IMG/VR virus record: IMGVR_UViG_2690316210_000008
Direction: 5' to 3' (one strand)
DNA from: a virus
Taxonomy: Duplodnaviria > Heunggongvirae > Uroviricota > Caudoviricetes
Length of the DNA stretch: 5,787 nucleotides
In this document: positions 1 to 5,787 of the stretch, piece after piece
Layout of the letters: each line of letters starts with the position of its first letter
How positions within the stretch are numbered: the first letter of the stretch is position 1
Translations under genes and position numbers: made by a program
Notes under the pieces: generated by a model
Seen by the model: only the letters and a program-made list of their open reading frames with translations
The model's database searches: none
What the model was told of the DNA's origin: nothing

Positions 1-109
1 GGCATCCGCATAGTGCGCTGGGTTATCGCTCGCCACGGGAATATCTGTGGCAGCGGGCTTGTAATGGGTTAAGTGATAACAGATGTCTGGAAATATAGGG
101 GCAAATCCA
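1..109 (+). mobile_element. Right terminus (last ~109 bp, including the terminal inverted repeat) of an IS2 insertion sequence (IS3 family); the element body lies upstream of the window
   Basis: Seen: bases 68-109 read GTTAAGTGATAACAGATGTCTGGAAATATAGGGGCAAATCCA, which matches my recollection of the IS2 right inverted repeat ending ...GGGGCAAATCCA. Frame 3 of bases 3-98 encodes ...[25 protein letters not shown], the typical C-terminal tail of the IS2 OrfB transposase. Established: IS2 termini are 5'-TA...CA-3'. No database search was possible, so identity rests on recalled sequence. Confidence 0.8.
3..98 (+). CDS. insD: IS2 transposase OrfB (InsD), extreme C-terminal end; 5' part outside the window
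   Basis: Seen: frame 3 is open from the window edge to TAG at 96-98 and encodes [31 protein letters not shown]. Established: the ...HSALGY.SP.EY... tail is characteristic of IS3-family (rve/DDE) transposases. Only 32 codons are visible. Confidence 0.7.
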
Positions 110-1401
110 CTAATGCCGATGCTAAAATTGATGCAATGCACAAGCAAATCACTACCGAAACAGGTAAAACCGTTCAAGCCTCAGCCGATACTCTCAAGAG
201 TCTGATTGCTACCAGTGAGCAAGCTAGCTCAACTAAGATTGATCAGGTTAAAGCTGAACTGAAAGGCGATATCACCAAAGAAGTTAGCGCCTCCGCTACT
301 ACCCTGAAACAAGCAATTGCTACCAGTGAGGCAGCAAGCGCAAGCAAGATTGATCAAGTTCGGGTAGAAATGGATGGCAAGATTGCTGGTGTGAATCAGG
401 AAGCAGATGTAAAAATCGATGCTTTGAAGGGAACCATTAACAGCAAATATAATCTGGCAGTTAATGCAGATGGTCGCGTGGCTGGTATTCACATGAGCGC
501 AACCAACGATCCGGCGCAACCGACGAGAATCATCTTTAATGCTGATAAAATCGCGGTAGCTCCACAGAACGGGTCGGGGGTATGTCCGTTTGGTATCGAA
601 GGTAACAAGGTTTATCTCGATAATGCCATGATTCGTAATGCTGCAATTGGTACAGCCCAGATTAATGATGCGGCGATTACCACGGCTAAAATCGGCAATG
701 CTGCAATTAACAGCGCGAAGATTCAGGACGGGGCAATCACTAATGCCAAGATCGTAAACGGTGCAATTGATAACGCTAAAATCGGTAACTATATCCAGTC
801 TTCCAACTGGAATGGATCTACCGGATGGCATATCAACAAGAATGGCTCTGCTACGTTCATGAACGCAACCGTTAAAGGTAATATCACGGCTGATTCTGGT
901 ACTCTGAACAACGTCACGATTAACTCTAGCTGTGTTATTAAGGGTATGCTTGAAGCTACTCAGGTTAAGGGTGATTTCGTTAAGGTGATTGGTCGTAAGT
1001 TCCCGCACCGTGATGTTAACGTTGATAATGGTTATGCTGGCTATCCACAAGGTACAGTGACCGTTCGCGTTGAAGATGATCACAAGTTCGATCGTCAAAT
1101 CGTTATTCCGGCAATTAGTTTTGGTGGATTGCGAGCGCGTGAAGGGTCGAACGGTAATACGTTTTACGACACCTGTCGCCTTATTGTTCGTAAGAATGGG
1201 TCAGAGTTGTATAATAGGGCTTATGGCGGCAATACTGGTCTTTACTCTGGTGTTATTGATATGCCAGCGGGTAAGGGTGCTGTAACTCTAACGTTTGAAG
1301 TACACTCAAGCGCAATCAACAACTGGACGCCTAGCACATGGATCAGTGATTTAACTGTAATGGTAACTAAAAAAGCCACTACGGGTATTACTGTTTCTTA
1401 A
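73..1401 (+). CDS. Phage tail fibre / host-specificity (receptor-binding) protein, C-terminal portion; the listed GTG start at 73 lies inside the IS2 terminus, so the native gene is probably 5'-interrupted and native sequence begins about base 110
   Basis: Seen: 442-codon ORF ending TAA 1399-1401. It has two full 37-aa tandem repeats built around a KIDQV motif, five consecutive 10-aa repeats of form I-x-[ND]-[AG]-A-I-x-x-A-K (residues 187-236), and an N/G/T/S-rich C-terminal domain. Inference: this composition and repeat architecture is typical of phage tail fibres. Codons 1-12 are encoded by IS2-derived sequence and there is no Shine-Dalgarno before 73 or before the first in-frame ATG at 136. 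Confidence 0.7.
175..396 (+). repeat. Two tandem ~111-nt (37-codon) imperfect direct repeats inside the tail-fibre gene, with partial units flanking (about 124-420)
   Basis: Seen: AAGATTGAT (K-I-D) recurs at 235-243 and 346-354, exactly 111 nt apart, within aligned units ...[20 protein letters not shown]... and ...[20 protein letters not shown]...; further KID motifs at codons 18 and 114. Confidence 0.8.
631..789 (+). repeat. Five tandem 30-nt (10-codon) repeats encoding I-x-[ND]-[AG]-A-I-x-x-A-K inside the tail-fibre gene
   Basis: Seen in translation: [10 protein letters not shown] / [10 protein letters not shown] / [10 protein letters not shown] / [10 protein letters not shown] / [10 protein letters not shown], then IGN. 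Confidence 0.8.
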
Positions 1402-1420
1402 AAATTTAATTTTAATAATT

Positions 1421-1460
1421 AATCCCGCTTAATTCTTTAGAGTTAGGCGGGATTATTTTT
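1421..1460 (+). terminator. Putative rho-independent terminator after the tail-fibre gene
   Basis: Seen: AATCCCGC (1421-1428) pairs with GCGGGATT (1447-1454) around an 18-nt loop, followed by ATTTTTAT (1455-1462). The long loop lowers confidence. Confidence 0.45.
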
Positions 1461-1507
1461 ATCTAAATAATTTTGCCATTAAACTATATAAAAATATCGG
1501 GGGCGTA

Positions 1508-1786
1508 ATGACTGAAATTATATATGGCGGTATCGGTGTTATCGCCTTAATTTGTGGTGGATTATGGAGACTTCACCGAAATCAATTAGCCACAGAAAAT
1601 AGATTGTCGAAATTAGAATCCAATGATGCATTGTTTAATCAGAAGTTTGAAACAATGCAGAATAACCACGATCAGATATCCGAGAGAGTTTATCGCATGG
1701 AACAAACCCTTCACGGTATAGAAAAGAAAGTGGTTGCGATGGACGCTAAATTTGACCAAGTTATCGATTTACTCAGACAAAAATAA
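1508..1786 (+). CDS. Small membrane protein with one N-terminal transmembrane helix and a coiled-coil domain (92 aa); possibly a spanin-like or holin-accessory lysis protein
   Basis: Seen: ATG 1508 preceded by GGGGG (1499-1503). Hydrophobic stretch IIYGGIGVIALICGGLW, then a charged heptad-like segment (LSKLESNDALFNQKFETMQNNHDQISERVYRMEQTLHGIEKKVVAMDAKFDQVIDLL). Inference: this topology resembles i-spanins or antiholins; no sequence-level match was recognised. Confidence 0.6.
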   Translation: MTEIIYGGIGVIALICGGLWRLHRNQLATENRLSKLESNDALFNQKFETMQNNHDQISERVYRMEQTLHGIEKKVVAMDAKFDQVIDLLRQK

Positions 1787-1805
1787 TAATAAAAGGGGTG
1801 AATAT

Positions 1806-1976
1806 ATGAAGAATAAACTTAAGAAATATTTTGGTTATCTCTTGATTGTCGCCCTCACTTATAACGTAGCAATCAGACCTCTGCTTACGTCCTTTGGGCT
1901 TAATCTTCCGGCAATGTCCGTTGATGATGAATTGCTCAGGATGATAGCGGGGGTCTTTTCGTTATTAGGGGGATAA
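1806..1976 (+). CDS. Small hydrophobic membrane protein (56 aa); holin candidate
   Basis: Seen: ATG 1806 with Shine-Dalgarno AGGGGTG (1792-1798); the longer track ORF from 1734 would need a TTG start inside the previous gene. Hydrophobic segments YFGYLLIVALTYNVAI and LLRMIAGVFSLLGG. Stop TAA 1974-1976 sits 1 nt before the next ATG. Confidence 0.55.
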   Translation: MKNKLKKYFGYLLIVALTYNVAIRPLLTSFGLNLPAMSVDDELLRMIAGVFSLLGG

Positions 1977-1977
1977 C

Positions 1978-2661
1978 ATGGCAATCAGTACCAATAAACG
2001 AAACGCTCTAAGGACTAAGAAAGCGTTACGGCAATGGACTGATAAGGCAACCGATACATTCGAAAAGGCGATAGGGGAAGGGGCGATCTTTGCTGCTCGC
2101 GCACTCCAGAAGAAGATTAACAAGAATGTTGATAGACCTACTCGCTGGACTCAGCAAGCTGTAGGTAATACCAACTACAAGAACCGGTCAGGGACCAGAC
2201 ACCAAATCTTCATCAAGGGCGCAAGGGATAAGGACAAGAAGATCGGGAGTCAGGATGACTATCTGAAACACTATTTCGATGGTGGCAAAATCAATAAGCT
2301 AGTGCCAATCGCTAACGGCAAGGTCTTAGACTCCCACGGGAACATTAAGGCCATCAAAGGCGGTAAGATGATGCGTAACATCGAAAACGGCAACTTCATC
2401 AAGATAGAGAACAAGGAAGGGACTTTTATCATGAAGAAGTATAAGCCTAAGAAATCCCGAACCAAACGCGCTAGGAATGGATCGGCGGTGGCAAAACGTC
2501 GCTTAGAGAAACGCACACAGAAACAGAGTAAGCGAATTGTTGCCGTTAAGTCGGATAAAATTTCTACTCGTTATTCGACGCTAGGATCGTGGGAAAGCAA
2601 CGAAGTAATGATGCTTAAGAATATCAATAAGCACATTAAATCACGCATGAAATACGTTTAA
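1978..2661 (+). CDS. Highly basic Lys/Arg/Asn-rich hypothetical protein (227 aa), with an especially basic stretch near the C-terminus (KKYKPKKSRTKRARNGSAVAKRRLEKRTQKQSKR); possible nucleic-acid-binding or virion-internal protein
   Basis: Seen: ATG 1978 preceded by GGGGG (1967-1971); stop TAA 2659-2661; no cysteine; no hydrophobic segment. The function is inferred from composition only. Confidence 0.6.
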   Translation: MAISTNKRNALRTKKALRQWTDKATDTFEKAIGEGAIFAARALQKKINKNVDRPTRWTQQAVGNTNYKNRSGTRHQIFIKGARDKDKKIGSQDDYLKHYFDGGKINKLVPIANGKVLDSHGNIKAIKGGKMMRNIENGNFIKIENKEGTFIMKKYKPKKSRTKRARNGSAVAKRRLEKRTQKQSKRIVAVKSDKISTRYSTLGSWESNEVMMLKNINKHIKSRMKYV

Positions 2662-2671
2662 TCCATAAATA

Positions 2672-2696
2672 CCCTCATAAGAATCTTATGGGGGGG
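2672..2696 (+). promoter_or_regulatory. Stem-loop overlapping the Shine-Dalgarno of the following gene (possible translational control or RNA processing site)
   Basis: Seen: CCCTCATAAG (2672-2681) pairs with CTTATGGGGG (2685-2694), a 10-bp stem with one G-U pair and a 3-nt loop. The stem includes G2691-2694 of the GGGGGG Shine-Dalgarno (2691-2696) for ATG 2703. No T-run follows, so it is not a terminator. Confidence 0.35.
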
Positions 2697-2702
2697 TATA
2701 AC

Positions 2703-3050
2703 ATGGCTAAAAATATTTTCACTGAATTTCCTACTTATCCGGTCGATCAGCTTTCCGGTATTTTTATTAATGGCATTAGCCCTGAATCAATGACCTATGA
2801 TTTTGAGGCGAAGAGAGTCCAACATAAACAATTCAAGCAGATGATCCGCGATGATGGTAATGGGCTAGTGTTTTGTGTTGCGACACTCGCTAAACGTCCT
2901 AAGTATCGCTTTCGTGTAGGGCAGGAGATTGATGTAGTTAATCCTTACAACTTCAATTGTATTGGCGATGCACGAGCGGTATGTGTAGGCACAACTAACT
3001 ACTATATCAAGGGACTCCGCTTTACCGGGTATCTCTTCCAGTACCTTTAA
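2703..3050 (+). CDS. Hypothetical protein (115 aa), no recognisable domain
   Basis: Seen: ATG 2703 with GGGGGG 6 nt upstream is preferred over the track start at ATG 2688, which has no Shine-Dalgarno. Stop TAA 3048-3050. Protein MAKNIFTEFPTYPVDQLSGIF... has no motif I recognise. Confidence 0.55.
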   Translation: MAKNIFTEFPTYPVDQLSGIFINGISPESMTYDFEAKRVQHKQFKQMIRDDGNGLVFCVATLAKRPKYRFRVGQEIDVVNPYNFNCIGDARAVCVGTTNYYIKGLRFTGYLFQYL

Positions 3051-3059
3051 GGGGGTAAT

Positions 3060-3413
3060 ATGATCTCTCGTTACTTTCGACGTAAAGAATTTGAATGCAA
3101 ATGTGGGAAGTGCGGACAGGATACCGTAGACGCTGAATTACTGGCAATTCTTGAGGATGTACGCGAATACTTCGGGAAACCAGTAGTTATTAACAGTGCT
3201 AACCGTTGTCCGGCACACAATAAGAAAGTTGGTGGCGCTTCTCGTTCGATTCATATCACGGGCAAGGTCGCAGATATTGTAGTGAAAGGTGTCTCTCCTG
3301 ATATCGTTCACTCTTATCTTGATAGCAAATATCCCGATCAGTATGGTTTAGGCAAATACAAAACCTTTACGCATATCGATTCTAGAGGATATAAGGCTAG
3401 ATGGAATGGATAA
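3060..3413 (+). CDS. Zinc metallopeptidase of the peptidase M15 (M15A/DUF882-like) family; probable phage endolysin (peptidoglycan peptidase)
   Basis: Seen: ATG 3060 preceded by GGGGG (3051-3055). Motifs RRKEFECKCGKCG near the N-terminus, SIHITGKVAD (His-x6-Asp) and THID. Established: H-x6-D plus a downstream H-x-D/H is the zinc-binding signature of M15 peptidases, a family that includes phage endolysins. No signal peptide is evident, so export would need a holin. Confidence 0.8.
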   Translation: MISRYFRRKEFECKCGKCGQDTVDAELLAILEDVREYFGKPVVINSANRCPAHNKKVGGASRSIHITGKVADIVVKGVSPDIVHSYLDSKYPDQYGLGKYKTFTHIDSRGYKARWNG

Positions 3414-4106
3414 AATTAAAGCGCCTCTAGTGGGCGCTTTTTTGTTTTTTTCACGAGGCTGTTTACACGCAGATTGCCATGTACTTACAACAATCAGGCG
3501 ATCGCCTACATGCTTACTAGTACCACTCATGATAGTATGAATTGCCTCATAAGGAAACTGGCGATAATCAACAAAATCATCACGCATTTGCAGCACTAGC
3601 GACGTGGTAGGAACGATGATCAGCACTTTCCCTTCATAGTTCTCTAAGTACCAGCGAGACAACATACAAGCAATCGCAGATTTACCAGCGGACGTAGGCA
3701 AAACTAACATTCCACGTTTATGATGAATACCTTCAAAGACAGCCTTTGATTGATACCAATGCGGGGTGATCCTGTTAGCACCGGAATATAATTCCAGATC
3801 ATTACACCATTTTGTAATTTCTTCTTCTGTAACTTGTTCTTTTTCGAATAAGCGAGGGTCTACCCATACGCTATATCCCATATTTTTAGCGAAGATTCCC
3901 ACGGTTTTAGTTAGGCCGATTGGTAGTCTATTTTCATAGGTAAAAAGTCTTATGCGACCATCCCAATTGGAATACTTAAATTTTTTGCTAAATCTAGCTC
4001 CCTCAACTTCAAAGGAAAAGTAATCCCTTAGTTCCATCGCTATAGAATCAGAGCAATCAATTTTAACGAAACTATAGTCTTGAAAATGAATTTTAATATC
4101 TGGCAT
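3348..4106 (-). pseudogene. uvsW: N-terminal ~220 codons of a T4 UvsW-type SF2 DNA helicase, truncated after motifs I and Ia; the final ~33 codons are unrelated read-through into the antisense of the terminator and endolysin 3' end
   Basis: Seen: P-loop motif LPTSAGKS and motif Ia VLIIVPTTSL are present, but no DExH box or later motifs; the ORF ends ...STWQSACKQPRE then KNKKAPTRGALILSIPSSLISSRIDMRKGFVFA*. Recalled: the N-terminus (MPDIKIHFQDYSFVKIDC...WDGRIRL...PHWYQ..AVFEG) closely parallels T4 UvsW as I remember it, where DECH follows roughly 10 residues after KQPKEW. The likely start is ATG 4104-4106 (Shine-Dalgarno GGAG 8 nt upstream, overlapping the upstream stop as TAATG), not the track's GTG at 4115. 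Confidence 0.7.
3418..3450 (+). terminator. Strong rho-independent terminator after the peptidase gene, likely bidirectional
   Basis: Seen: AAAGCGCC (3418-3425), 7-nt loop TCTAGTG, GGCGCTTT (3433-3440), then TTTTTTGTTTTTTT to 3450. On the minus strand the same hairpin is followed by TTTAATTTTAT. Confidence 0.8.
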
Positions 4107-4675
4107 TAGTTCCACTCCACACTTGCAATATTCTTGATGTTATTCACTTCCTTCTCATTGAAAACGAATGTCTCTGTTTTGCCGTATTCAATCCCGCCTA
4201 TACCTACATCCAGTAATCTCTTGATTGCTCTTTCAGTGGCTAGTGCATGTTTCATTGATGGCATTTCACCAGCGTAGACAATATCAAAGTTATGACCGGG
4301 ATTGCGTACACCCAGATTAATGCGTCGCTTGATGATTGACTTTGTTACACCAAATTTACCAATATCCCCTGATTTCATTACATAGAGATAAGGCACACCC
4401 GCTTTATATTGAAAGTAATCACTTTTGAGACAAGCACAGCGTTTACCTTCATTAAGCAGGTTAGTAGCTGATTTGTCGGCTCTATTACCACATCGGGTAC
4501 ATGTAAGAGCAATTCTTGAATGAAGCCCTTTAAACTCACCCAGAAAGCCATGAAAGACTAACGGTAAGTCATTATCTTTGATGTGAGTCAGAATGCGTTG
4601 TTCTAATGCCGATGGAGTTACAGCACGGGAGGATTTAGGAGTAAAAACAATATCTTTAGCCATTACTGGAATCAT
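4106..4675 (-). CDS. Protein with a Cys-rich zinc-ribbon-like segment and a C-terminal T5orf172/GIY-YIG-superfamily-like domain (189 aa); homing-endonuclease-like selfish gene candidate
   Basis: Seen: ATG 4673-4675 with GAGGT 4 nt upstream; stop TAA 4106-4108. Motifs C-x2-C-x16-C-x-C (CTRCGN...KRCAC) and YLYVMKSGDIGKFGVT...RR. Inference: the Y-hydrophobic ... K-F/I-G-V-T ... R pattern resembles the T5orf172 (GIY-YIG clan) domain. The N-terminus (AKDI.F ... GFLGEFKG) is paralogous to the gene at 4831. Confidence 0.65.
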   Translation of the reverse strand: MIPVMAKDIVFTPKSSRAVTPSALEQRILTHIKDNDLPLVFHGFLGEFKGLHSRIALTCTRCGNRADKSATNLLNEGKRCACLKSDYFQYKAGVPYLYVMKSGDIGKFGVTKSIIKRRINLGVRNPGHNFDIVYAGEMPSMKHALATERAIKRLLDVGIGGIEYGKTETFVFNEKEVNNIKNIASVEWN

Positions 4676-4830: not shown

Positions 4831-5787
4831 ATGAAACTAGCATTTGCCAAAGATATTGATTTTGTTAAAAGAACGAATGGAAAATCACCTTTAGAGATAG
4901 AACAAGAGATAATCGATAAGGTGTCGCCAACCGGATTAATCTATTCAGGATTAATTCTTCCCTTCAAAGGTAGTATGGGTAAGTATCGCGTAACTCACCC
5001 AGACACAGGGGAGTTTAAGGATTATGCAATTAAGCATTTCAATAACTTCACCGGAACAGAATTGTTTTCTACCGAAAAGGCCGCATTAGTCTCGATTAAA
5101 AGGAAGTGCGAGAAATTAGGGAAAGAATTTATAGAATGGGATGGAGGCTGGAAAGGATTTGCAAAAACCAAAGCCGTGATTATGTGCAAAGAGCATGACA
5201 GAACATTAAACCCAAAACTGGTTTATGCACTAAAAGATGATGTTCCTTTGGCGTGTTCCGGTTGTCGCGGCGATACTGTGCACAAGAAATCTAATGGCGG
5301 TAAGACTAGACATGAAGTAAGACAGGAAAAACAAGCAATCATCGAATCCCGTTGCGAAAAGATGAATTACACTTTCAAGGGATTCTCCGGTGATTTACGG
5401 TACTCATATGCAACAAAATTCGTTATTCACTGCAACAAGCATAATGTTACATGGGAATCAACGAAATGCACTATCCATAAGTTTACTTGCCCCGAATGCA
5501 GAAAAGAACAGTTGATTCAGCTTTCCAACCGTACATACACTGATAAGGCTAATTTCTATATTCAATTATTAGATGACAAATTTATTAAATTTGGTGTTAC
5601 CACACGAGATATTAAAATCAGGATGTATGAGCAAACCAGAAAGAGCAATTTTAACCATAAATTAATCTTCCTTCATGAGTTCGCGGAAGGATGGAAAGCA
5701 TTAGACCTAGAGCATGAAGTAAAACAACGCTTTATGAAGTGGTCAACAAAAACTGGCCACCGAGTTAGAGTTTTTCCAGTATCGATT
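4831..5787 (+). CDS. Protein with two Cys/His zinc-ribbon repeats and a T5orf172/GIY-YIG-like domain, paralogous to the minus-strand gene at 4106-4675; 3' end beyond the window
   Basis: Seen: I translated ATG 4831 through base 5787, 319 sense codons with no stop. The supplied ORF track omits it because the ORF runs off the window. Shine-Dalgarno AGAGGA 7 nt upstream. Two repeats ([KR]CEK..., C-x2-H-x15-20-C-x2-C): CKEHDRTLNPKLVYALKDDVPLACSGC and CNKHNVTWESTKCTIHKFTCPEC. Then FYIQLLDDKFIKFGVTTRDIKIR..., which is T5orf172-like. The N-terminus (AKDIDF ... GLILPFKG) aligns with the minus-strand paralogue. Confidence 0.75.
   Translation, partial: MKLAFAKDIDFVKRTNGKSPLEIEQEIIDKVSPTGLIYSGLILPFKGSMGKYRVTHPDTGEFKDYAIKHFNNFTGTELFSTEKAALVSIKRKCEKLGKEFIEWDGGWKGFAKTKAVIMCKEHDRTLNPKLVYALKDDVPLACSGCRGDTVHKKSNGGKTRHEVRQEKQAIIESRCEKMNYTFKGFSGDLRYSYATKFVIHCNKHNVTWESTKCTIHKFTCPECRKEQLIQLSNRTYTDKANFYIQLLDDKFIKFGVTTRDIKIRMYEQTRKSNFNHKLIFLHEFAEGWKALDLEHEVKQRFMKWSTKTGHRVRVFPVSI

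What the first reader, a model, noticed from the sequence alone, without database searches (positions are those of the whole stretch)
1508..3413. Lysis-like operon with non-canonical content between the tail fibre and the M15 peptidase
Five co-oriented genes are tightly packed, each with a G-rich GGGGG-type Shine-Dalgarno. They are a membrane and coiled-coil protein (92 aa), a small hydrophobic protein (56 aa), an extremely basic 227-aa protein, a 115-aa unknown, and an M15 zinc peptidase, ending at a strong terminator. There is no lipoprotein o-spanin (no lipobox Cys in any small ORF) and no textbook holin. The basic protein and the 115-aa unknown are unexpected inside a lysis cassette and could be moron-type cargo such as anti-defence, superinfection-exclusion or DNA-binding factors.
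Basis: inference. Interest (0 to 1): 0.5.

Follow-up and report, generated by a model that had tools for sequence, protein, structure and literature searches.

The report
Conserved spanin-less prophage lysis module
The five genes are the conserved end-of-late-operon lysis module of an undescribed family of E. coli/Salmonella prophages; it has no outer-membrane-breaking (spanin) genes, and its two unknown proteins are fixed core parts of the module, not cargo.

Summary
Five co-oriented ORFs (92, 56, 227, 115, 117 aa) each have a G-rich Shine-Dalgarno sequence. They sit between two strong terminators, are under purifying selection, and no lipobox ORF exists in any frame.

The window is an IS2/IS911-bounded remnant of a ~37-kb siphovirus-type prophage. 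Intact copies sit in ycdX in 55 of 5,426 complete E. coli genomes.

The same five-gene order follows the J-like tail-tip gene in Salmonella, Providencia, two more distant prophage lineages and phage DCP80. Only the last gene changes, between three enzyme families: Peptidase_M15_3, Peptidase_M15_4 and lysozyme. That pattern marks a lysis cassette.

The 227-aa and 115-aa genes are always present and tightly coupled to their neighbours, so the moron-cargo reading is not supported. PADLOC gives no hit.

The 227-aa protein belongs to phrog_1924, annotated as Cronusvirus "minor tail protein", with only weak links to lambda gpZ. The 115-aa protein is a small beta-barrel with no known relatives. The 92-aa protein has the Mu gp25 "releasin" layout but fails the DUF2730 sequence test. 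No holin family matches either membrane protein.

My leading reading is a lysis module plus two virion-completion-type proteins. The main rival is that the pair replaces spanins. Only experiments can decide.

The parts
110..1401 (+). 3' end (last ~430 codons) of a J-like tail-tip / central fibre gene, cut at its 5' side by an IS2 end (window 1-109). The module starts directly downstream.
   Evidence: Pfam Ig_GpJ_C 2.1e-34 and Phage_Tail_Tip 1.6e-22. Window 110-3446 aligns to L001 20001-23332, which lies inside a 1258-aa tail-tip gene.
1420..1455 (+). Intrinsic-terminator hairpin plus T-run between the tail-tip gene and the module. It is followed by a conserved TAAATAnTTTTGCC motif.
   Evidence: 16-pair stem and T-run. 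The hairpin is conserved in E. coli, Salmonella and Providencia copies, with changes on both arms that keep pairing.
1508..1786 (+). 92-aa membrane protein: 3 residues, one TMD (residues 4-22), then a ~70-aa coiled-coil domain. Predicted topology is N-out/C-in. It is a candidate holin partner or regulator, or the holin itself.
   Evidence: Hydropathy. Only generic coiled-coil hits in Pfam. phrog_12015 (unknown function) at 3e-4 to 1.9e-5. Family alignment has invariant W20, H23, E30, R32 and E37. dN/dS 0.06-0.08.
1806..1976 (+). 56-aa membrane protein: Lys-rich N-terminus, one TMD, short C-terminal hydrophobic Gly-rich tail. Predicted N-in. It is a candidate holin.
   Evidence: Hydropathy and pI 9.6. 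A 56-57-aa counterpart with the same layout exists in all relatives. Its stop codon lies -8 to +8 nt from the start of the basic-protein gene in all of them. Weak phrog_2024 hit, unknown function.
1978..2661 (+). 227-aa very basic soluble protein of family phrog_1924. It has a conserved N-terminal ~125 aa (motifs DRPTxFT, QxxYL, GNI) and C-terminal ~40 aa, with a variable Lys/Arg-rich middle.
   Evidence: pI 10.7. Only 12 relatives in 1.84 billion representatives. 12 of 15 family members hit phrog_1924, the best at 2.4e-33 and the Salmonella orthologue at 8.5e-10. hhalign against RcCronus gp44 gives 96% and against R4C gp49 gives 96.7%. The AF2 model is unusable at pLDDT 43.
2669..2699 (+). 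Conserved RNA hairpin that pairs the G-run Shine-Dalgarno of the 115-aa gene.
   Evidence: Folding energy -15.1 kcal/mol, z -2.7. The stem ATACCCTCAT / ATGrGGGTAT is present in 5 E. coli and Salmonella copies, but no pair changes on both sides.
2703..3050 (+). 115-aa soluble protein, predicted small beta-barrel, with no known family. It is always the gene just before the endolysin.
3060..3413 (+). 117-aa zinc peptidase of family M15 (Peptidase_M15_3). It is the endolysin and has no signal or SAR sequence.
   Evidence: Pfam 9.4e-28 and phrog_894 endolysin 5.1e-41. H65-x6-D72 and H105 are present in the sequence. The N-terminus is hydrophilic (MISRYFRRKEFECK).
3418..3440 (.). Bidirectional terminator hairpin that closes the module. 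At 3447-3450 the window joins a truncated uvsW-like helicase gene on the opposite strand.
   Evidence: 9-pair G+C-rich stem with T-runs on both strands.

Best explanation
The five genes are the last late-expressed module of a ~37-kb temperate siphovirus that integrates into ycdX. In this window the phage is a decayed, IS-bounded remnant.

**Lysis part.** The module is the phage's lysis cassette.
- The M15 peptidase is made in the cytoplasm without an export signal, so it needs a hole-forming holin to reach the cell wall.
- The two small membrane proteins supply that function. One is 56 aa and predicted N-in. The other is 92 aa, predicted N-out/C-in, with a ~70-aa cytoplasmic coiled coil like Mu gp25. 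One acts as holin and the other as its partner or regulator.
- The phage has no spanin of either type.

**The two unknown proteins.** The 227-aa basic protein and the 115-aa beta-barrel protein are fixed core members of the module, not cargo.
- The basic protein belongs to phage family phrog_1924.
- I rate it most likely (about 45%) a gpZ-like tail-completion or virion-associated protein, co-translated with the lysis genes, with the 115-aa protein as its partner.

**Shown:** gene content, boundaries, purifying selection, conservation of order, swapping of the endolysin, family membership of the 227-aa and 117-aa proteins, and absence of lipoprotein genes.

**Inferred:** membrane topologies, which membrane protein is the holin, and the virion role of the 227/115 pair.
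For: **Context.** An intact prophage carries terminase, portal, capsid, tape measure, distal tail protein and a 1258-aa J-like tip, followed by these five genes.

**Conserved order.** The same five-gene order follows the tip gene in:
- Salmonella;
- Providencia;
- an unnamed enterobacterial contig;
- two distant lineages, L012 and L014;
- phage DCP80.

**Swappable last gene.** The last gene is Peptidase_M15_3, Peptidase_M15_4, Phage_lysozyme or a T4-lysozyme-like endolysin. The four upstream genes persist.

**Tight coupling.** Spacing from the small-protein gene to the basic-protein gene is -8 to +8 nt. Spacing from the ~100-aa gene to the endolysin is -4 to +10 nt, except in DCP80.

**No rival lysis genes.** No other holin, endolysin or spanin candidate appears in the prophage by PHROGs. 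No lipobox ORF appears in any frame.

**Family of the 227-aa protein.**
- It belongs to phrog_1924.
- Family member P0083 also hits phrog_4688 minor tail (2.8e-6), phrog_27 tail completion/Neck1 (5.5e-3) and Pfam Minor_tail_Z (0.11).
- P0083 and RcCronus gp44 score z 4.5-5.6 against lambda gpZ, with 0 of 200 shuffles reaching the score.
- gpZ has similar size and charge: 192 aa, pI 12.0.

**Precedent for gene position.** In the related phage R4C the tail terminator gene lies after the tip and fibre genes (PMC10276861).

Against: **Holin assignment.**
- No holin-family HMM matches either membrane protein.
- The assignment rests on size, hydrophobic segments and position only.

**The 'minor tail protein' label.**
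- I found no experimental support for the label on phrog_1924.
- The 12-protein cryo-EM inventory of the R4C virion does not include its phrog_1924 homologue gp49.

**Link to known tail-completion proteins.**
- Profile comparison of the family with lambda gpZ and with HK97 gp10 is negative.
- BLASTP with composition correction gives only E 0.065-0.22.

**Structure.**
- The best structural match of the 115-aa model is PilZ-type split barrels, not phage parts. The model itself is of medium quality.

**Arguments for the rival lysis reading.**
- A structural gene pair wedged between membrane proteins and the endolysin, and coupled to them across all lineages, is unusual.
- The phage lacks any known outer-membrane disruption gene.
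Confidence: 0.5

Rival explanations
1. The basic 227-aa protein and the 115-aa protein, possibly together with the 56-aa membrane protein, are new lysis factors. They would do the job of the missing spanins (outer-membrane disruption) or control the timing of lysis. After the holin and endolysin act, the strongly cationic protein would weaken the outer membrane, as phiKT's disruptin does.
For: - No spanin exists in the cassette or anywhere in the prophage.
- The pair lies between the membrane proteins and the endolysin in every lineage. It stays in place while the endolysin is replaced by unrelated enzymes.
- The trio of 56-aa, basic and ~100-aa genes stays contiguous even in DCP80, where other genes were inserted around it.
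- The protein has 57 K+R and a Lys/Arg-rich variable segment.
- There is precedent for a spanin-less coliphage that uses a cationic peptide (bioRxiv 10.1101/515445).
- R4C gp49 is not in the virion inventory.
Against: - There is no sequence or size resemblance to disruptin, which is 56 aa with net charge +7.
- In Cronusviruses the phrog_1924 gene lies at the genome's right end next to cos and terminase. There it is separated from the SAR-type endolysin and its membrane partner, gp03/gp04.
- Weak homology leads point to tail-completion families.
- The case rests on guilt by association only.
Confidence: 0.3
2. The 227-aa and 115-aa genes are moron-type cargo, such as anti-defence, superinfection-exclusion or DNA-binding factors, that happen to sit in the lysis operon.
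For: - Neither protein has an assigned function, and the basic protein could bind nucleic acid.
- The basic protein is only 33-38% identical between E. coli and Salmonella copies, while its neighbours are 63-88% identical. That fits a protein in an arms race.
Against: - Both genes are present in the same slot in all lineages examined, down to ~30% identity.
- They have no promoter of their own.
- Their G+C is not deviant.
- They are translationally coupled to their neighbours.
- PADLOC gives no hit.
- The real cargo-like genes of these prophages, OmpW/Ail-type outer-membrane proteins, sit near the attachment site.
Confidence: 0.08
3. The 92-aa TMD-plus-coiled-coil protein is an Rz-like inner-membrane spanin subunit working with a non-lipoprotein partner. 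On this reading the cassette does carry a spanin, of an unusual kind.
For: - The layout is an N-terminal TMD followed by a coiled coil.
- There are weak hits to phrog_739 'Rz-like spanin' at E 0.035-0.07.
Against: - Charge distribution in all homologues predicts N-out/C-in: acidic or neutral before the TMD and W-K/R-x-H-R/S-x-x after it. That puts the coiled coil in the cytoplasm, opposite to i-spanins.
- The protein is shorter than typical i-spanins.
- There is no lipoprotein partner in any frame.
- The PHROG hits are at coiled-coil noise level, alongside many unrelated coiled-coil families.
Confidence: 0.05

Closest known systems
Lambda-type lysis cassette (S holin, R endolysin, Rz/Rz1 spanin)
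   Same: - Small membrane proteins plus a cytoplasmic, signal-less endolysin lie in one tightly packed late transcription unit.
- The endolysin slot is filled by unrelated enzymes in related phages.
   Different: - There is no spanin of any kind.
- Neither membrane protein matches a known holin family, and neither has the 2-3 TMD layout of class I/II holins.
- Two conserved soluble proteins lie between the membrane proteins and the endolysin.
- The cassette follows the tail-tip gene rather than preceding the terminase genes.
Phage Mu gp25 'releasin' (DUF2730, PF10805)
   Same: - Both are ~92-99 aa with only 3-4 residues outside, one N-terminal TMD predicted N-out/C-in, and a ~70-aa cytoplasmic helical domain.
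- Both are encoded within a few genes of the endolysin (PMC9239132).
- A short motif after the TMD looks alike: GGLWRLHRNQLATENRLSKLE here, GGAVWAMRRSFASTERVERLE in Mu gp25.
   Different: - The window protein has no Pfam DUF2730 hit.
- hhalign against Mu gp25 gives 2.4%, and against a 5-sequence DUF2730 profile gives 10.6%.
- The endolysin here has no SAR anchor to release.
- The phage is not transposable.
Cronusvirus 'minor tail protein' (RcCronus gp44, R4C gp49; phrog_1924)
   Same: The N-terminal ~115 residues are homologous to the 227-aa protein's family (hhalign 96-97%). Size (199-201 aa) and strong basic charge are similar.
   Different: - It is encoded alone at the right end of the genome next to cos and terminase, not in a cassette with an endolysin.
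- The functional label is an annotation only.
- It is not among the 12 virion proteins modelled for R4C.
Lambda gpZ tail-completion protein (PF06763) and the HK97 gp10 family
   Same: - gpZ is a ~190-aa extremely basic protein with pI 12.0.
- Alphaproteobacterial phrog_1924 members show weak collinear similarity to it: z 4.5-5.6, Pfam 0.11, phrog_27 5.5e-3.
   Different: - The window protein and its family profile show no detectable similarity to gpZ or HK97 gp10.
- gpZ is encoded between the head-completion and tail-tube genes.
phiKT gp28 'disruptin'
   Same: The phage is a spanin-less coliphage. A strongly cationic, signal-less protein is encoded inside the lysis cassette.
   Different: - gp28 is a 56-aa amphipathic peptide, whereas the basic protein here is 227 aa with a conserved folded core.
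- The 56-aa protein here is hydrophobic with net charge about +3.
- There is no homology.
Peptidase_M15_3 phage endolysins (phrog_894)
   Same: The 117-aa protein is a full-length member with the zinc ligands in place.
   Different: Nothing notable. It is an ordinary member of the family.

Membership tests
Peptidase_M15_3 (PF08291) endolysin | HMM score above the curated cut-off over the whole domain | tested here: met
   96.9 bits against a cut-off of 23.2, covering residues 5-107 of 117. phrog_894 endolysin at 5.1e-41.
Peptidase_M15_3 (PF08291) endolysin | Zinc ligands H-x6-D ... H of LAS-type metallopeptidases | tested here: met
   H65-ITGKVA-D72 and H105 (FTHID) are read directly from the translation. 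The ligand pattern itself comes from my own knowledge of the family.
Holin (operational definition) | Small protein with at least one TMD and a charged C-terminus, encoded next to the endolysin | tested here: met
   The 92-aa and 56-aa proteins each have one hydrophobic segment (KD19 1.77 and 1.56). They lie 2-4 genes upstream of the endolysin.
Holin (operational definition) | Sequence membership of a described holin family | tested here: not met
   No holin model hit in Pfam, PHROGs or NCBIfam, either for the window proteins or for divergent homologues.
Holin (operational definition) | Forms lethal membrane holes that release the endolysin | not testable with these tools
   This needs inducible expression and lysis assays.
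Two-component spanin (Rz/Rz1 type) | Outer-membrane lipoprotein subunit with a lipobox Cys, separate from, overlapping or embedded in the i-spanin gene | tested here: not met
   No lipobox ORF in any frame of window 1400-3450. None in the whole intact prophage or in five related loci. The single L012 hit lies beyond the endolysin gene (L012 11585-, inside the span of the minus-strand recombinase gene), and I judged it spurious.
Two-component spanin (Rz/Rz1 type) | Inner-membrane subunit N-in/C-out with a periplasmic coiled coil | tested here: not met
   The positive-inside rule applied to all homologues predicts N-out/C-in for the 92-aa protein. This is a prediction, not an experiment.
Unimolecular spanin (T1 gp11 type) | N-terminal lipoprotein signal plus a C-terminal TMD in one protein | tested here: not met
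   No lipobox anywhere. Neither small protein has a C-terminal TMD combined with an N-terminal signal.
Releasin / DUF2730 (Mu gp25) | Match to PF10805 over its whole length | tested here: not met
   No hit at E <= 0.1 for the window protein. One distant positional homologue has only a 'faint' precomputed hit, and a fresh scan did not show it among the best 25 of 32 families. hhalign gives 2.4% and 10.6%.
Releasin / DUF2730 (Mu gp25) | N-terminal TMD predicted N-out/C-in, ~70-aa cytoplasmic domain, gene within five genes of the endolysin | tested here: met
   Three residues precede the TMD, basic residues follow it, and a 70-aa helical tail comes after. The gene is four genes upstream of the endolysin. 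The criteria are taken from PMC9239132.
Releasin / DUF2730 (Mu gp25) | Partner endolysin carries a SAR anchor (for the demonstrated releasin function) | tested here: not met
   The endolysin N-termini are hydrophilic in the window, L012 and L014.
phrog_1924 ('minor tail protein') | HMM match to the family profile | tested here: met
   The window protein scores only 3.9e-3, but 12 of 15 family members match. The Salmonella positional orthologue scores 8.5e-10 and P0083 scores 2.4e-33 over its full length. hhalign against RcCronus gp44 and R4C gp49 gives 96-97%.
phrog_1924 ('minor tail protein') | Presence in the virion tail | not testable with these tools
   No experimental basis for the label was found. 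The R4C virion model lists 12 proteins without gp49. Virion mass spectrometry is needed.
Lambda gpZ (PF06763) / HK97 gp10 tail-completion proteins | Detectable sequence or profile similarity | tested here: inconclusive
   The window protein and the family profile show none. Alphaproteobacterial members are weakly similar to gpZ (z 4.5-5.6; Pfam 0.11; phrog_27 5.5e-3), but composition-corrected BLASTP gives E 0.065-0.22.
Disruptin (phiKT gp28) | Short (~56 aa), hydrophilic, highly cationic amphipathic peptide without a TMD | tested here: not met
   The 56-aa protein is hydrophobic with a TMD and net charge about +3. The cationic protein is 227 aa with a conserved core.
PilZ domain | c-di-GMP-binding motifs RxxxR before the barrel and (D/N)xSxxG in it | tested here: not met
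Moron / accessory cargo | Patchy presence among related phages, own promoter and terminator, deviant composition | tested here: not met
   The genes are present in all lineages in the same order. No promoter-like site lies upstream on the + strand. G+C is 0.42-0.44 against 0.41 for the window.
Known anti-phage defence systems (PADLOC) | HMM match to any component model | tested here: not met
   No hit at E <= 0.01 for any of the five proteins or for two divergent homologues.

The most novel reading that the evidence does not exclude
The 56-aa membrane protein, the basic phrog_1924 protein and the ~100-aa beta-barrel protein form an invariant, translationally coupled trio. This trio could be a new kind of lysis component that replaces spanins in a whole lineage of enterobacterial siphoviruses. 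It would disrupt the outer membrane or gate lysis, and it would work with any of three unrelated endolysins.
Probability: 0.27. Interest if true: 0.75.

Novelty: new variant of a known kind. Interest (0 to 1): 0.45.

Why it matters
**The open question.** Phages of Gram-negative hosts are thought to need a dedicated step to break the outer membrane. About 15% have no recognisable spanin, and only one substitute, disruptin, has been described.

**What this module offers.**
- It is a clean, compact test case in genetically tractable hosts.
- It is conserved, has no spanin, carries a swappable endolysin, and holds exactly two conserved soluble proteins of unknown role.
- Lambda Rz/Rz1 complementation and virion proteomics would settle whether the pair is a new lysis function or a displaced pair of tail-completion proteins.

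**Annotation value.** Either answer gives a name to four 'hypothetical protein' families. They are present in about 1% of complete E. coli genomes and in many Salmonella genomes. The answer would also correct or confirm the untested 'minor tail protein' label of phrog_1924.

**Limit for this window.** The element here is a decayed remnant, so the biological interest lies in the intact relatives.

Tried and rejected
**Known phages and plasmids**
- DNA similarity of the cassette to known phages gives only a 66%-identity match of the peptidase to Vibrio phages.
- tblastn of the 227-aa protein against 50,697 phage records finds nothing.
- No plasmid matches.

**Structure prediction**
- AF2 of the 227-aa protein on a 7-sequence alignment gave pLDDT 43, which is unusable. 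I should have waited for the deeper alignment.
- AF2 of the 115-aa protein gave pLDDT 61.5.
- Foldseek against BFVD and PDB finds nothing at E <= 1e-3.
- The afdb50 library was unavailable.

**PDB sequence searches**
- Profile searches with both families found nothing relevant.

**Tail-completion and terminator comparisons**
- Family profile of the 227-aa protein against lambda gpZ and HK97 gp10: negative.
- 115-aa family against the R4C terminator gp018 and RcCronus gp20: negative.
- I tried to identify the stopper and terminator of the E. coli prophage by comparing its 96-aa and 140-aa proteins with R4C and with PDB sequences. The comparison was uninformative. I therefore could not show whether a neck component is missing from the main morphogenesis block.

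**DUF2730 / releasin**
- I built a 5-sequence profile from Mu-like phages. hhalign gave 10.6%, against 1.6% for a reversed control. That is not enough to claim membership.

**Wider synteny survey in IMG/VR**
- The mixed alignments were too divergent for the tool.
- The close alignment returned only near-identical prophages.

**Literature**
- No paper mentions these protein accessions or a ycdX prophage.

**Readings rejected**
- The i-spanin reading of the 92-aa protein fails on predicted topology and the lack of a partner.
- The o-spanin and u-spanin readings fail because there is no lipobox.
- The defence-system reading fails because PADLOC is empty.

Full report
**Context of the window**

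The window is not a piece of a free phage genome.
- Bases 1-109 are an IS2 end at 98-99% identity.
- Bases 5734-5787 are an IS911 end at 100% identity.
- Between them lies a fragment of a prophage. Intact copies of about 37 kb sit inside ycdX in E. coli chromosomes and carry a large serine recombinase at one end.

The intact element (L001/L002) has a complete siphovirus-type morphogenesis block. It encodes a small terminase, a gpA-type large terminase, a head-tail joining protein, a portal and a 668-aa fused capsid protein. These are followed by a major tail protein, chaperones, a tape measure, a distal tail protein, a DUF6950 protein and a 1258-aa J-like tip protein.

In the window only the last ~430 codons of the tip gene survive: window 110-1401 equals L001 20001-21292. 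The GTG start of the 442-aa ORF at 73 lies in IS2.

Downstream of the five genes, a uvsW-like helicase gene on the opposite strand has lost 832 bp of its 3' half. The phage is therefore dead here, but the five genes of the finding are intact.

**Check of the observation**

The five ORFs, their lengths and their G-run ribosome-binding sites are as described.
- The unit is bracketed by a 16-pair terminator hairpin at 1420-1455 and a bidirectional terminator at 3418-3440. The scan found 6 terminator-like sites in 1300-3600 against 1.6 expected.
- The first hairpin is conserved in E. coli, Salmonella and Providencia copies, with changes on both arms that preserve pairing.
- No sigma-70-like promoter lies upstream on the + strand.
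- dN/dS against the intact E. coli copy is 0.06-0.33 for all five genes, so all are real coding genes.
- The 227-aa protein has pI 10.7.
- No ORF in any frame of 1400-3450 has a lipoprotein signal. A wider screen found none in the whole intact prophage or in five related loci.

**Comparative evidence**

The four non-enzymatic proteins have very few relatives.
- The 227-aa protein has six clusters in a 5.8-billion-protein word search. A full HMMER scan of 1.84 billion representatives found 12.
- The 115-aa protein has 17 relatives and the 92-aa protein has 49, all from E. coli, Salmonella or Providencia.

Fetching their contexts showed one recurring arrangement directly after the J-like gene:
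1. a TMD-plus-coiled-coil protein of 92-153 aa;
2. a membrane protein of 56-57 aa;
3. a basic protein of 181-239 aa;
4. a protein of 99-117 aa;
5. an endolysin.

This order holds in the following loci:
- Salmonella (L006-L008, L010);
- Providencia (L003);
- an unnamed enterobacterial contig (L011);
- two much more distant prophage lineages (L012/13 and L014/15);
- the deposited phage DCP80, where two of the ORFs are unannotated.

The endolysin slot holds Peptidase_M15_3, Peptidase_M15_4, Phage_lysozyme or a T4-lysozyme-like enzyme. The four upstream genes stay, at 17-39% identity to the window proteins in the distant lineages.

Gene spacing is tight throughout.
- The stop of the small-protein gene lies -8 to +8 nt from the start of the basic-protein gene in all seven versions.
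- The ~100-aa gene ends -4 to +10 nt before the endolysin gene, except in DCP80.
- In DCP80 an endonuclease VII gene and a reverse-strand gene have been inserted into the module, but the trio of small, basic and ~100-aa genes remains contiguous.
- A conserved hairpin at 2669-2699 pairs the Shine-Dalgarno sequence of the 115-aa gene, which suggests its translation depends on the gene before it.

The cassette is present in 55 of 5,426 complete E. coli genomes, always chromosomal.

**The individual proteins**

*117-aa protein.* It is an ordinary Peptidase_M15_3 endolysin with its zinc ligands in place and no signal or SAR sequence. It therefore needs a hole-forming holin.

*92-aa protein.*
- Three residues precede a single TMD. 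Basic residues follow it (W-R/K-x-H-R-N-Q), then ~70 helical residues.
- All homologues share this charge pattern, so the predicted topology is N-out/C-in with a cytoplasmic coiled coil.
- That is the layout described for Mu gp25, the 'releasin' (PMC9239132). It is the opposite of an i-spanin.
- A short motif after the TMD resembles gp25. However, Pfam DUF2730 does not match the window protein. Profile comparison gives 2.4% against gp25 and 10.6% against a five-sequence DUF2730 profile that I built, with 1.6% for a reversed control. Membership is not established.

*56-aa protein.* It has a Lys-rich N-terminus, one TMD and a short hydrophobic Gly-rich tail. It matches no holin family.

*227-aa protein.*
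- Its family has a conserved N-terminal ~125 residues and C-terminal ~40 residues around a variable Lys/Arg-rich segment.
- Twelve of 15 members match phrog_1924, 'minor tail protein'. The Salmonella positional orthologue scores 8.5e-10 and the most distant member, P0083, scores 2.4e-33.
- The profile matches RcCronus gp44 and R4C gp49 at 96-97% probability.
- In those Cronusviruses the gene stands alone at the right end of the genome, next to cos and the terminase genes.
- I found no experimental basis for the 'minor tail' label.
- The cryo-EM inventory of 12 R4C virion proteins does not include gp49. The same paper shows that the tail terminator of that phage is encoded after the tip and fibre genes, so structural genes can sit there in this broad group (PMC10276861).
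- Links to lambda gpZ are weak. P0083 hits Pfam Minor_tail_Z at 0.11 and phrog_27 (tail completion/Neck1) at 5.5e-3. P0083 and RcCronus gp44 score z 4.5-5.6 against gpZ. gpZ is similarly sized and even more basic.
- Against this, the family profile does not match gpZ or HK97 gp10. Composition-corrected BLASTP is not significant.
- The E. coli and Salmonella alleles of this protein are only 33-38% identical, although the flanking genes are 63-88% identical.

No PADLOC model matches any of the five proteins.

**Interpretation**

The module is the lysis cassette of this phage lineage.
- It is the only place in the prophage with an endolysin and small membrane proteins.
- The endolysin is exchangeable.
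- The unit is a separate terminator-bounded block at the end of the late genes.

- it has no spanin;
- it has no recognisable holin family;
- it has two extra conserved soluble proteins.

Their role is not settled by anything I could compute. My estimates are:

| Reading of the 227/115 pair | Probability |
|---|---|
| Virion or tail-completion-type role | about 45% |
| New lysis function that stands in for spanins | about 30% |
| Everything else, including cargo | the remainder |

These are phrog_1924, the weak gpZ and tail-completion links, and tube-fold neighbours of the 115-aa model. The second rests on context only, but that context is striking.

**Comparison with known systems and novelty**

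- The unit works like a lambda-type holin-endolysin cassette, but it lacks Rz/Rz1 equivalents.
- The 92-aa protein looks like a releasin but is not a demonstrable DUF2730 member, and its endolysin has no SAR anchor.
- The cationic protein recalls the disruptin idea (bioRxiv 10.1101/515445) but shares neither size nor sequence with gp28.

I classify the finding as a new variant of a known kind. It is a conserved spanin-less lysis module from an uncharacterised prophage lineage. The closest deposited phage capsid is only 43% identical, and no paper was found.

Interest is moderate. Nothing here is proven to be new biology. However, the module makes the question of how spanin-less phages of enteric bacteria get out directly testable with standard lambda complementation tools.

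Noticed in passing
window 1-109 and 5734-5787: The window starts with an IS2 end (98-99% identity) and ends with an IS911 end (100%). The prophage fragment between them is a decayed remnant. The IS2 insertion removed about 830 codons of the J-like tail-tip gene, and the apparent GTG start at 73 lies in IS2.
   Followed up: partly
window 3450-4115 (- strand): The N-terminal 222 codons of a UvsW-type helicase gene are ~95% identical at DNA level to uvsW of RB49-like T4-type lytic phages (Krischvirus). An 832-bp deletion relative to the intact prophage removed the C-terminal half. Salmonella relatives, and E. coli FDAARGOS_1267 by its annotation, also carry UvsY. A temperate siphovirus that shares near-identical recombination genes with lytic T4-like phages is unusual.
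   Followed up: partly
window 4106-4675 (-) and 4831-5733 (+): Two nuclease genes flank the helicase gene. One is a T5orf172/CapR-domain endonuclease of 189 aa. The other is a GIY-YIG family nuclease cut by IS911. They look like homing-endonuclease-type genes and could explain the exchange of uvsW with T4-like phages.
   Followed up: no
window 2669-2699: A conserved hairpin (ATACCCTCAT...ATGGGGGGGTAT; -15 kcal/mol, z -2.7) pairs the Shine-Dalgarno G-run of the 115-aa gene. It starts 8 nt after the stop of the 227-aa gene and is present in five E. coli and Salmonella copies. It probably couples translation of the two genes. The stem is conserved in sequence, so there is no covariation proof.
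   Followed up: partly
window 1420-1475: The terminator after the tail-tip gene is conserved from E. coli to Providencia, with compensatory changes. It is followed by a conserved TAAATAnTTTTGCC motif and no sigma-70 consensus promoter. The motif may be a late-activator or antitermination-related site.
   Followed up: partly
L009 (Escherichia phage DCP80, PQ671644) 1-26000: This 141-kb record is filed as a T4-like Gaprivervirus. It carries a siphovirus-type morphogenesis block (capsid 43% identical to the prophage's) and homologues of the module, next to T4-type genes (endonuclease VII, motA). ORFs 22472-22933 and 23411-23584 are unannotated. It is either a real hybrid or a chimeric assembly.
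   Followed up: no
window 1508-3413 compared with L001 21398-23299: There is a gene-by-gene mosaic. DNA identity to the intact E. coli copy is 98, 90, 96, 84 and 73% for the five genes in order. The basic protein is only 33-38% identical between E. coli and Salmonella copies, while its neighbours are 63-88% identical. This points to allele replacement rather than gradual drift.
   Followed up: partly
L001 7971-12622; L003 15265-15969; L010 17374-18366; L011 18050-19679: The intact prophage has a T-even gp38-like adhesin and a 1147-aa fibre gene inserted inside the siphovirus tail block. Salmonella and Providencia relatives carry OmpW/Ail-type outer-membrane protein genes next to the recombinase. 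Those look like the true cargo genes of this family.
   Followed up: no
L001/L002 (NZ_AP027850 3013808-3050660): In the intact prophage the small terminase gene lies at the far left end. It is separated from the large terminase gene by about 6 kb that includes a Rha-family regulator. No repressor or replication initiator was recognisable. The life cycle of this element is unclear.
   Followed up: no
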